Of a stretch of 17,104 nucleotides of DNA, positions 2,919 to 3,301 are shown piece by piece. The translations under genes were made by a program, and so were the position numbers. Each line of letters starts with the position of its first letter. Positions within the stretch are counted from its first letter, which is position 1. The notes beneath the pieces are model-generated. The model did not search any database. It had not been told where the DNA came from and worked only from the letters and a program-made list of their open reading frames with translations. This DNA comes from a virus: the UHGV virus genome UHGV-0120250; one strand, written 5' to 3'.

Positions 2919-3089
2919 TCAGAATGGACATGGCCCAAGGAAATAACGCTGATTTAATACTTCGACTCGGGACAAATTAAGGCATACCCGCATTCCTTCG
3001 CGGTCGCCATTATGGCGATACCAGAGAGCTTTCTGTGTGTACATGCGTCTCTGTAACTTGCTCTCCTTCACTGTGGTTGCAAGTGACAT
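2919..3089 (-). CDS. small hypothetical ORF, 56 aa (MSLATTVKESKLQRRMYTQKALWYRHNGDREGMRVCLNLSRVEVLNQRYFLGPCPF)
   Basis: Translated by hand; AAGGAGAT SD 5-6 nt upstream of ATG 3089; ends 13 nt before the erf ATG. Overlaps the 3010..3168 ORF in another frame, so only one of the two may be real. Confidence 0.3.
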   Translation of the reverse strand: MSLATTVKESKLQRRMYTQKALWYRHNGDREGMRVCLNLSRVEVLNQRYFLGPCPF

Positions 3090-3168
3090 GAATATCTCCT
3101 TCGTTACCGATTAATTCTTTCATCTGACGAATGAATTCTTCGTCTGACCAGTTATCTGTAAAACTCAT
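3010..3168 (-). CDS. small hypothetical ORF, 52 aa (MSFTDNWSDEEFIRQMKELIGNEGDIHVTCNHSEGEQVTETHVHTESSLVSP)
   Basis: ATG 3168 overlaps the stop of the upstream Kil-like ORF (ATGA), suggesting translational coupling; acidic protein with no recognisable motif. Confidence 0.3.
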   Translation of the reverse strand: MSFTDNWSDEEFIRQMKELIGNEGDIHVTCNHSEGEQVTETHVHTESSLVSP

Positions 3169-3287
3169 TTCCTGCGATACCATGGAAGGTTGATAGCTGA
3201 TTTCATCGCTTTATTTGCTTCAAGCCACATTTTTGAATCACCAATAAATCTGGCTATTACTGCTTTGTTTTGTGCCGCACGAAGCAT
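3165..3287 (-). CDS. kil: Kil-like small protein, 40 aa (host division inhibitor homologue)
   Basis: Hand translation MLRAAQNKAVIARFIGDSKMWLEANKAMKSAINLPWYRRK; the segment IARFIGDSKMW-EA--A-K resembles lambda Kil (IATFIGDEKMFREAVDAYKK, from memory). Starts 15 nt after the cIII stop, which is the lambda position for kil. No obvious SD. Confidence 0.5.
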   Translation of the reverse strand: MLRAAQNKAVIARFIGDSKMWLEANKAMKSAINLPWYRRK

Positions 3288-3301
3288 CTGGTGATTAATG
3301 G

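What the first reader, a model, noticed from the sequence alone, without database searches (positions are those of the whole stretch)
2919..3301. Densely overlapping small ORFs between cIII and erf, including a Kil-like peptide
Three minus-strand small ORFs fill the gap. A 40-aa Kil-like ORF (3165..3287) starts 15 nt after cIII. A 52-aa acidic ORF (3010..3168) is coupled to it by ATGA. A 56-aa ORF (2919..3089) has the strongest ribosome-binding site but overlaps the previous one by 80 nt in another frame. Which are translated is unresolved; none appears in the ORF track because all fall below its size cutoff.
Basis: partly seen in the sequence, partly recalled or inferred. Interest (0 to 1): 0.35.

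Follow-up and report, generated by a model that had tools for sequence, protein, structure and literature searches.

The report
Known small genes before phage erf
The gap between cIII and erf in this lambdoid prophage holds three small genes already annotated in phages HK97, HK022 and Sf6: the cell-division inhibitor Kil, an Arf-like acidic peptide and a HkaM-type protein that always sits just before the recombinase gene; this is ordinary, but the roles of the last two are still unknown.

Summary
The three minus-strand ORFs exist. Two have the coordinates given. The Kil ORF starts earlier than stated, at ATG 3317 (50 aa), and overlaps cIII by 16 nt.

The region is about 98% identical to HK97 and HK106. 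There the genes are annotated as kil, gp42.1 and gp42 (Sf6 gp31, gp30, gp29).

- **Kil** is a true lambda-type Kil (Pfam 1.7e-20). P22 Kil is unrelated.
- **ORF-B (2919..3089)** belongs to phrog_1723, the family of HK620 HkaM. It evolves under purifying selection over its whole length. AlphaFold2 predicts a confident helical hairpin, and the C-terminus FLGxxPF is invariant. Wherever a downstream gene could be read, it lies directly 5' of a strand-annealing recombinase gene (ERF, Rad52-like or Sak4), except in phage S9-5, where an HNH endonuclease gene sits between.
- **ORF-A (3010..3168)** shows coding constraint only in its first 20 or so codons, which form one predicted helix carrying the SDEEFI motif shared with P22 Arf. 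Its 26-codon tail inside ORF-B is unconstrained, and chance alone would leave it open.

All three are therefore most likely translated, as a coupled chain cIII, kil, ORF-A/ORF-B, erf. HK97's fused gp42.1 is a singleton caused by two 1-nt insertions, not evidence of frameshifting.

Verdict: already known genes of unknown function. Interest is low to moderate.

The parts
3302..3436 (-). cIII (44 aa); its last 16 nt overlap the start of kil
   Evidence: Pfam cIII PF08134 2e-30. HK97 annotates the same 135 nt.
3322..3326 (-). GGAGG ribosome-binding site for kil, inside cIII, 4 nt before ATG 3317
   Evidence: Read directly from the sequence.
   Evidence: Pfam Lambda_Kil 1.7e-20 and phrog_2055 1.2e-35 over its full length. 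57% identity over 30 aa to lambda Kil. Annotated as kil in HK97, HK022, Sf6 and by PGAP.
3010..3168 (-). ORF-A, 52 aa acidic peptide (HK97 gp42.1 type, Sf6 gp30, phrog_2123); ATGA-coupled to the kil stop
   Evidence: phrog_2123 5.5e-41. Open with an ATGA or GTGA start in divergent relatives L092 and L101.
3091..3168 (-). Part of ORF-A that does not overlap ORF-B (codons 1-26). Constraint was measured on codons 2-20, which contain the WSDEEFI motif and the predicted helix 9-20.
   Evidence: Codons 2-20: substitutions by codon position [4,3,9], [4,3,11], [4,0,9]; pN/pS 0.18-0.54 in this frame against 0.7-3.1 in the other frames. AlphaFold2 predicts helix 9-20 and nothing else ordered. The same 18 residues head 31-35 aa proteins next to RecT modules.
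3010..3089 (-). 80-nt overlap of the ORF-A tail with the ORF-B head; only the ORF-B frame is constrained here
   Evidence: pN/pS is 0.20-0.70 in frame B and 1.1-7.0 in frame A. Resampling synonymous codons of ORF-B leaves frame A open this far with P=0.25-0.71.
3096..3101 (-). AAGGAG ribosome-binding site of ORF-B, inside ORF-A, 6 nt before ATG 3089
   Evidence: Read directly from the sequence. A GGAG-type site lies in the same place in homologues that lack ORF-A.
2919..3089 (-). ORF-B, 56 aa (HK97 gp42 type, Sf6 gp29, HK620 HkaM family, phrog_1723); helical hairpin with an invariant FLGxxPF C-terminus
   Evidence: phrog_1723 9.4e-36. HkaM falls in the same PHROG, and hhalign gives probability 96%. 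pN/pS 0.13-0.70 in this frame against about 0.4-3.6 in the other frames. AlphaFold2 pLDDT 91.6. In the 101 loci analysed it lies 1-13 nt before an ERF, Rad52-like or Sak4 gene in every locus where a downstream gene could be read; in one a homing HNH gene intervenes, and four give no reading.
3035..3040 (-). (AC)3 tract. HK97's two 1-nt insertions flank it and the 1-nt deletion of another E. coli lineage falls within it; both fuse ORF-A to ORF-B.
   Evidence: Alignments. The HK97 junction is found once in IMG/VR, against at least 120 unshifted junctions.
2909..2918 (-). 10-nt spacer between the ORF-B stop (TGA 2921..2919) and the erf ATG (2908)
   Evidence: Read from the sequence. The gap from stop to the next start is 1-13 nt in all relatives, usually as TTCTGAGG.
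2303..2908 (-). erf (201 aa from ATG 2908); its stop overlaps the next gene's ATG as TAATG
   Evidence: Pfam ERF 2.1e-44. HK97 annotation. Junction read.

Best explanation
The interval is a gap-free run of three real small genes in the early-left (pL) operon of an HK97/HK022-like lambdoid prophage. Each gene is joined to its neighbour in a way that favours coupled translation.

1. kil (50 aa) starts at a GGAGG-led ATG inside the end of cIII. It encodes a lambda-type Kil helical hairpin, which in lambda blocks FtsZ ring assembly.

2. ORF-A starts on the ATGA that ends kil. Its working part is a short N-terminal acidic amphipathic helix (WSDEEFIRQMKELI) that resembles the N-terminus of P22 Arf in motif and position. 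No stop codon follows this part, so translation simply runs about 26 codons into ORF-B, producing a disordered, unselected tail.

3. ORF-B starts independently at its own AAGGAG-led ATG inside ORF-A. It is the HkaM/gp42 protein, a folded two-helix hairpin ending in FLGxxPF. It terminates 10 nt before the erf ATG.

Because ORF-B-family genes abut the 5' end of unrelated strand-annealing recombinase genes, I infer two roles: an accessory or regulatory factor of the phage recombination module, and a leader cistron that delivers ribosomes to the recombinase start.

Shown here: gene identities, frame-specific selection, fold prediction and synteny. Inferred: translation itself, the coupling, and any role in recombination.
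For: Identity:
- The region is 98% identical to HK97 and HK106, and the ORFs are annotated there and in HK022, CUS-3 and Sf6.
- Kil: Pfam 1.7e-20; 57% identity to lambda Kil.

ORF-B:
- pN/pS 0.13-0.70 in its own frame against about 0.4-3.6 in the other frames.
- The invariant P and F codons vary synonymously (CCA/CCG/CCC, TTC/TTT).
- AlphaFold2 pLDDT 91.6, helices 7-27 and 30-49.
- It shares its PHROG with HK620 HkaM.
- In the 101 loci analysed the next gene, 1-13 nt away, is ERF, Rad52_Rad22 or AAA_24/Sak4 wherever one could be read; S9-5 has an HNH gene in between, and four loci gave no downstream reading. Divergent members P0136 (before ERF) and P0130 (49 nt before AAA_24) show the same.

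ORF-A:
- Substitutions are biased to third codon positions, with pN/pS 0.18-0.54 in codons 2-20.
- ATGA or GTGA coupling is kept with two different upstream genes.
- The N-terminal module is reused in 35-aa proteins.
- AlphaFold2 predicts one helix plus disorder.

Module structure:
- Mosaic breakpoints fall at 3319, 3168 and 2918, that is at gene boundaries.
- Lambda shows the same overlapping style, with kil overlapping both cIII and gam.
Against: - There is no direct expression evidence (ribosome profiling or mass spectrometry) for ORF-A or ORF-B.
- The ORF-A evidence rests on three divergent lineages and about 57 nt.
- ORF-A is absent from about 12 of the 101 ORF-B loci (16 fail the strict start-motif test, but that count includes HK97, one frameshifted locus, L101 and one truncated contig), so it is dispensable.
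- In the only functional test of a family member, the whole HK620 module including hkaM gave no more oligonucleotide recombineering than sak4 plus ssb (PMC5928155). A role in recombination is therefore unproven and may concern dsDNA ends, regulation or something else.
- The window's spacer before erf (TGAGAACAAACATATG) lacks the strong GAGG seen in most relatives.
Confidence: 0.75

Rival explanations
1. Only kil and ORF-B are genes. ORF-A is an accidental open frame across the ORF-B leader. Its conserved 5' part would be kept for DNA or RNA reasons: a mosaic joint between modules, or the ORF-B 5' UTR and ribosome-binding site.
For: - The ORF-A tail is unconstrained, and chance would leave it open.
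- ORF-A has no Pfam or NCBIfam family.
- About 12 of the 101 ORF-B loci lack it.
- The first 52 nt are 100% identical between otherwise different modules, as expected of a recombination joint.
- PGAP often annotates only one hypothetical gene here.
Against: - In divergent lineages the changes in codons 2-20 sit mostly at third positions (9-11 of 13-18), and pN/pS is lowest in frame A.
- The start codon always overlaps the upstream stop (ATGA or GTGA), whichever gene is upstream.
- The same N-terminus heads independent 31-35 aa ORFs with acidic tails.
- Variants with an in-frame 21-nt tandem duplication exist (P0036, P0055).
- No RNA structure signal was found.
Confidence: 0.17
2. ORF-A and ORF-B are two halves of one protein made by programmed +1 (or -2) ribosomal frameshifting in the 80-nt overlap, as HK97's annotated 83-aa gp42.1 suggests.
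For: - HK97 encodes the A::B fusion directly.
- About eight further distinct 81-82 aa fusion proteins with different junctions exist in public data, one of them on 36 contigs.
Against: - ORF-B has its own strong AAGGAG plus ATG and stands alone, with no ORF-A, in about 12 of the 101 loci.
- The overlap contains no recognisable slippery or stop-adjacent shift site (reading).
- The HK97 junction occurs once in IMG/VR against at least 120 unshifted junctions.
- Frameshift variants into the third frame also occur (P0066, P0074), as expected from random indels or sequencing errors.
- The ORF-A tail is not conserved.
Confidence: 0.03
3. ORF-B is conserved as a nucleic-acid element, a leader or boundary sequence for the recombinase gene, and not as a protein.
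For: - Its 3' end is the most conserved part, and its stop codon lies within the ribosome-binding site of the next gene (TTCTGAGG).
- It always abuts a recombinase gene.
- The HK620 module gained nothing from hkaM in oligonucleotide recombineering (PMC5928155).
Against: - Selection is frame-specific across the whole ORF.
- Invariant residues are encoded by different synonymous codons.
- Members at 48% amino-acid identity keep the same length and the same pattern of conserved residues as the predicted hairpin.
- The fold prediction is confident.
- No RNA structure signal and no Rfam match were found.
Confidence: 0.03

Closest known systems
HK97 kil / gp42.1 / gp42 (also HK022 gp43/42.1/42, Sf6 gp31/30/29, CUS-3 ECRS218_0051-0053)
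   Same: The DNA is the same at 94-98% identity, with the same order cIII-kil-ORF-A-ORF-B-recombinase. HK022, Sf6 and CUS-3 annotate the same two overlapping ORFs.
   Different: The HK97 record carries two 1-nt insertions flanking the (AC)3 tract. These fuse the ORF-A head to the ORF-B body (83-aa gp42.1 and an in-frame 58-aa gp42). The window has the common unfused form.
HK620 HkaM (NP_112046), originally labelled arf by position
   Same: It shares a PHROG with ORF-B (phrog_1723), and hhalign gives probability 96%. It is a helical protein ending in ...LPF, its stop lies in TTCTGAGG 8 nt before the recombinase gene, and it sits right after kil.
   Different: HkaM is 62 aa and about 33% identical. 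It precedes Sak4 rather than Erf, and no ORF-A overlaps it. Its function is unknown: it added nothing to Sak4 plus SSB in oligonucleotide recombineering (PMC5928155).
P22 Arf (accessory recombination function, Pfam PF17585, phrog_2445)
   Same: It is a small acidic peptide encoded between kil and erf in the pL operon, with the N-terminal motif [F/W]-S-D-E-E-F-I at the same distance from the start. Arf stimulates Erf-dependent recombination (Poteete et al. 1991, as cited in PMC12315714).
   Different: No profile-level homology was found: Pfam gives no hit, phrog_2445 gives E=0.045 and hhalign gives probability 14.7%. P22 arf overlaps erf directly and P22 has no ORF-B. The two C-terminal halves are unrelated.
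Lambda Kil (47 aa, PF06301)
   Same: The hairpin core ...IA.FIGD.KM..EA... is shared. The gene overlaps the end of cIII and lies upstream of the recombination genes. The helix-turn-helix core is essential for blocking division (PMC11762379, PMC3961180).
   Different: The window's Kil is 50 aa, with an 8-residue longer N-terminus and the C-terminus LPWYRRK. It is followed by ORF-A and ORF-B instead of gam. Activity was not tested here.

Membership tests
Lambda Kil (Pfam PF06301) | Match to the family profile above the curated cut-off | tested here: met
   72.6 bits against a cut-off of 27.6, E=1.7e-20; phrog_2055 1.2e-35 over its full length.
Lambda Kil (Pfam PF06301) | Helix-turn-helix core with the conserved F-I-G-D turn | tested here: met
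   Alignment to lambda Kil: 17 of 30 residues identical, including IA.FIGD.KM. The core is described as essential in PMC11762379.
Lambda Kil (Pfam PF06301) | Position in the pL operon directly after cIII and overlapping it | tested here: met
   16-nt overlap in the window; 32 nt in lambda.
Lambda Kil (Pfam PF06301) | ZipA-dependent inhibition of FtsZ ring assembly, causing filamentation | not testable with these tools
   Needs expression in E. coli. Known for lambda Kil (PMC3961180).
HkaM / HK97 gp42 family (phrog_1723), for ORF-B | Match to the family profile | tested here: met
   9.4e-36 over the whole protein. HkaM scores 3.6e-33 against the same profile, and hhalign gives 96%.
HkaM / HK97 gp42 family (phrog_1723), for ORF-B | Length of 56-62 aa, two helices, and the invariant C-terminal F-L-G-x-x-P-F as the last residues | tested here: met
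   Alignments; AlphaFold2 model.
HkaM / HK97 gp42 family (phrog_1723), for ORF-B | Gene ends within about 13 nt of the start of a strand-annealing recombinase gene | tested here: met
   10 nt before erf in the window. The gap is 1-13 nt in the analysed loci where a downstream gene could be read, across ERF, Rad52_Rad22 and AAA_24. Divergent members P0136 and P0130 also precede ERF and AAA_24, P0130 with a 49-nt gap.
P22 Arf (Pfam PF17585 / phrog_2445), for ORF-A | Match to the family profile | tested here: not met
   No Pfam hit at E<=1; phrog_2445 E=0.045; hhalign probability 14.7% over 17 columns.
P22 Arf (Pfam PF17585 / phrog_2445), for ORF-A | Small acidic peptide with the N-terminal x-S-D-E-E-F-I motif, encoded between kil and erf | tested here: met
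   NWSDEEFI against EFSDEEFI at residues 6-13 and 4-11. Gene order.
P22 Arf (Pfam PF17585 / phrog_2445), for ORF-A | Stimulates Erf-mediated recombination | not testable with these tools
   Genetic assay only (Poteete et al. 1991, as cited in PMC12315714).
HK97 gp42.1 / Sf6 gp30 family (phrog_2123), for ORF-A | Match to the family profile, starting at MSFTDNW | tested here: met
   5.5e-41; residues 6-57 of the 57-aa reading align to profile positions 1-52 of 52. This supports ATG 3168 as the start rather than ATG 3183.
Programmed ribosomal frameshift gene pair | Slippery or stop-adjacent shift site in the overlap, and a downstream ORF that lacks its own start signals | tested here: not met
   No such site was seen on reading the overlap. 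ORF-B has AAGGAG plus ATG and exists without ORF-A. Fused genomic versions are rare.

The most novel reading that the evidence does not exclude
The ORF-B/HkaM family is a general accessory factor of phage single-strand-annealing modules. It would work through its invariant C-terminal ...P-F-COOH, which resembles the tip of the SSB C-terminal tail (DDDIPF; HK620 SSB NDYPPF; the window's own SSB-like protein ends DDSIPF).

By occupying the pockets that read the SSB tip, on the recombinase or on host SSB partners, it would tune hand-over of ssDNA to whichever recombinase is encoded next to it. That would explain why one small protein family travels with ERF, Rad52-like and RecA-like Sak4 genes alike.
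Probability: 0.1. Interest if true: 0.55.

Novelty: already known. Interest (0 to 1): 0.25.

Why it matters
For annotation:
- Kil here is 50 aa and overlaps cIII.
- ORF-A and ORF-B are both real and should both be called. PGAP often calls only one.
- The PHROG label 'recombinase' on phrog_1723 and phrog_2123 is misleading.
- HK97's gp42.1 fusion is an oddity of that record and not the family norm.

For biology, the modest gain is the ORF-B/HkaM family itself. It gave only 23 hits at E<=0.001, several of them fragments or spurious matches in long proteins, among 1.84 billion representative proteins. Wherever its downstream gene could be read, it sits against the 5' end of a strand-annealing recombinase gene from one of three Pfam families. 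That marks it as an untested component or regulator of phage recombination modules, which are the source of recombineering tools.

Tried and rejected
- **Kil and ORF-B as paralogues** (both are hairpins with R..GD at the turn): hhalign probability 6%; rejected.
- **ORF-A as a true Arf family member:** only a 17-column motif match; not accepted.
- **Programmed frameshift or fusion:** rejected as the norm. The HK97 junction is unique, and other frameshift variants go in all directions.
- **Selection for the long overlap:** synonymous resampling shows frame A stays open by chance (P=0.25-0.71).
- **RNA elements:** folds around the ORF-B and erf starts are no more stable than shuffled sequence (z -1.07 and +0.71). 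Rfam finds only two tRNAs elsewhere in the window.
- **Fold search of the ORF-B model against the PDB:** only generic helical hairpins, best E=1.8.
- **NCBIfam and PADLOC:** no meaningful hits for any of the three proteins.
- **GTDB species-representative genomes:** only 8 loci, so that collection added little breadth.
- **Literature searches for HK97 gp42 and HkaM:** nothing beyond PMC5928155.
- **P22 Kil:** unrelated in sequence to the window's Kil.

Full report
**What is in the sequence.** On the minus strand, the window between cIII and erf reads as follows.
- cIII runs 3302..3436.
- A 50-aa ORF runs 3165..3317, and its ATG lies 16 nt inside cIII behind GGAGG.
- A 52-aa ORF (ORF-A) runs 3010..3168, and its ATG forms ATGA with the stop of the previous ORF.
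- A 56-aa ORF (ORF-B) runs 2919..3089. It lies in the +1 frame relative to ORF-A, overlaps it by 80 nt, and is preceded by AAGGAG at a 6-nt spacing.
- After a 10-nt spacer, erf starts at ATG 2908. The erf stop overlaps the next gene's start as TAATG.

The Kil ORF was started at the internal Met11 (3287), which has no ribosome-binding site.

**Identity.** The 651 bases around the finding are 98% identical to phages HK106 and HK97 and 94% identical to HK022. They match 97 phage records and 1114 of 5426 complete E. coli genomes.
- HK97 annotates cIII, kil, gp42.1, gp42 and erf.
- HK022, CUS-3 and Sf6 annotate the same two overlapping small ORFs.
- Kil matches Pfam Lambda_Kil (1.7e-20) and phrog_2055 over all 50 residues. 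ORF-A matches phrog_2123 (5.5e-41) from MSFTDNW onward. ORF-B matches phrog_1723 (9.4e-36).
- Both of the last two PHROGs carry the unhelpful label 'recombinase'.
- The window's Kil is 57% identical to lambda Kil across the hairpin core. That core is reported to be essential for blocking division (PMC11762379, PMC3961180).
- P22 Kil is a different protein.

**The Kil start.** The 50-aa start is supported by its GGAGG, by the full-length profile alignment, and by all annotations.
- In the Kil of Enterobacter phage vB_Ecl_MII_001, Met11 is replaced by Leu while the upstream start is kept.
- Lambda kil likewise overlaps both cIII and gam, so dense overlap is the normal style of this operon segment.

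**ORF-B is a real, selected protein.** I collected divergent homologues:
- HK022;
- Enterobacter phage MII_001;
- a Pseudocitrobacter prophage;
- P22-like Salmonella phages;
- Kluyvera and other prophages;
- Erwinia phage 59, at 48% identity.

In the part of ORF-B that does not overlap ORF-A, pN/pS is 0.13-0.70 in the ORF-B frame and about 0.4-3.6 in the other two frames.
- The invariant terminal Pro and Phe are encoded by CCA/CCG/CCC and TTC/TTT.
- AlphaFold2 on a 17-sequence alignment gives a two-helix hairpin (7-27, 30-49) with mean pLDDT 91.6.
- Foldseek against the PDB finds only generic hairpins.
- A profile search of 1.84 billion representative proteins finds only 23 hits at E<=0.001. 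Several of these are fragments or spurious matches inside long proteins. The ten divergent full-length members inspected end in FLGxxPF or a close variant.
- HK620 HkaM belongs to the same PHROG and aligns with probability 96%.

**ORF-B always abuts a recombinase gene.** In the 101 loci analysed, the next gene starts 1-13 nt after the ORF-B stop wherever one could be read; four loci gave no downstream reading. That gene is an ERF protein (two types), a Rad52_Rad22 protein or an AAA_24/Sak4 protein (two types).
- In phage S9-5, an HNH homing endonuclease has been inserted between ORF-B and erf.
- The most divergent members checked also precede ERF (7-nt gap) or, with a 49-nt gap, AAA_24.
- In most loci the stop lies inside TTCTGAGG, which serves as the ribosome-binding site of the recombinase gene.
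- Mosaic breakpoints among relatives fall just before kil (3319), exactly at the ORF-A ATG (3168), and just after the ORF-B stop (2918). ORF-A plus ORF-B therefore moves as one module and is found with different upstream genes and different recombinases.

**ORF-A is coding, but only at its head.** Three divergent lineages keep it open, with ATGA or GTGA overlapping whichever gene lies upstream.
- In codons 2-20, differences fall mainly at third positions ([4,3,9], [4,3,11], [4,0,9]). pN/pS is 0.18-0.54 in frame A and 0.7-3.1 in the other frames.
- In the 78-nt overlap the picture reverses: 0.20-0.70 in frame B and 1.1-7.0 in frame A.
- The tail sequences are unrelated between lineages.
- Resampling synonymous codons of ORF-B leaves frame A open as far as observed in 25-71% of trials.
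- AlphaFold2 predicts one helix (9-20) and disorder elsewhere.
- The same 18 N-terminal residues head 31-35 aa proteins with acidic tails next to RecT modules in phages Louie and HK140.
- About 12 of the 101 ORF-B loci have no ORF-A. Sixteen fail the strict start-motif test, but that count includes HK97, one frameshifted locus, L101 (GTG start one codon later) and one contig truncated at its 5' end.
- The SDEEFI motif and the position recall P22 Arf, but profile comparison does not establish homology (hhalign 14.7%).

**The HK97 fusion.** HK97's 83-aa gp42.1 arises from two 1-nt insertions flanking an (AC)3 tract (window 3035..3040). Together with a T-to-G change, they also give the annotated in-frame 58-aa gp42.
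- That junction occurs once in IMG/VR, in HK97 itself. The unshifted junction occurs at least 120 times.
- One E. coli lineage (P0021, 36 contigs) has a 1-nt deletion in the same tract.
- Public protein sets also hold a handful of other fusions at various junctions, and shifts into the third frame as well. This is the pattern expected from sporadic indels or sequencing errors.
- ORF-B has its own start signals and often stands alone, so programmed frameshifting is unlikely.

**Other checks.**
- No Rfam family matches the region.
- RNA folding around the two starts shows no signal.
- Neither NCBIfam nor PADLOC gives a meaningful match.
- Two terminator-like hairpins lie upstream of cIII, where HK97 annotates a putative terminator.

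**Function.**
- Kil very probably inhibits FtsZ ring assembly as lambda Kil does. This is an inference from homology.
- For ORF-A and ORF-B the functions are unknown.
- P22 Arf stimulates Erf recombination (Poteete et al. 1991, as cited in PMC12315714).
- The whole HK620 module including hkaM gave no more oligonucleotide recombineering than sak4 plus ssb (PMC5928155).
- My working model is a translationally coupled chain in which ORF-B is both a leader cistron for the recombinase gene and a small accessory or regulatory protein of the recombination module.
- The invariant terminal Pro-Phe resembles the SSB tail tip. That is a speculation, offered only as the novel case.

**Verdict.** The interpretation (a Kil-like peptide plus two overlapping small ORFs) holds. 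The genes are already annotated in several classic phages, so the finding is already known. The remaining interest lies in the untested HkaM-type family.

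Noticed in passing
L001 (HK97 AF069529) 1833-2084; window equivalent 3030-3095: The HK97 reference carries two 1-nt insertions flanking an (AC)3 tract, plus a T-to-G change that creates an in-frame ATG. Together these turn the usual ORF-A/ORF-B pair into an 83-aa fusion and a nested 58-aa ORF. The junction is unique to HK97 in IMG/VR, so it may be a sequencing error or a private mutation.
   Followed up: partly
window 3319, 3168 and 2918 (minus-strand gene boundaries): Similarity to 83 related loci breaks off at exactly three points: just before the kil ATG, at the ORF-A ATG, and just after the ORF-B stop. 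Kil is replaced in many loci by an unrelated 56-aa protein (...ILTGADFKQPRMKSLLEKL...) that is also ATGA-coupled to ORF-A.
   Followed up: partly
L094 (Salmonella phage S9-5) 2179-2649: An HNH homing-endonuclease gene (Pfam HNH_3) is inserted precisely between the ORF-B homologue and erf, using the same 7-nt spacer.
   Followed up: partly
proteins P0036 and P0055 (Salmonella Chester and E. coli prophages); window equivalent about 3118-3135: ORF-A variants carry an in-frame tandem duplication of the 7 codons FIRQMKE, in two or three copies, inside the conserved helix.
   Followed up: no
window 1920..2303 (-): The 127-aa protein after erf ends in DDSIPF, like the tip of an SSB C-terminal tail, but matches no Pfam family at E<=0.01. 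HK022 annotates its counterpart as a likely analogue of P22 Abc1.
   Followed up: no
window 2909..2938 (-): The longest erf ORF starts at TTG 2938 and would overlap ORF-B by 20 nt. The annotated and profile-supported start is ATG 2908.
   Followed up: yes
window 3509..3526 and 3469..3488 (-): Two terminator-like hairpins with T-runs lie between the gp45-like gene and cIII. HK97 annotates a putative terminator at this position.
   Followed up: no
window 15409..15564 (+): Two adjacent tRNA genes, tRNA-Asn(GTT) and tRNA-Thr(TGT), lie in the rightward late-regulatory region of the prophage.
   Followed up: no
phrog_1723 and phrog_2123 (database labels): Both small-protein families are labelled 'recombinase' in PHROGs, and RefSeq phage records inherit that label. 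Nothing in the sequences supports it. It looks like a positional annotation carried over from the neighbouring gene.
   Followed up: partly
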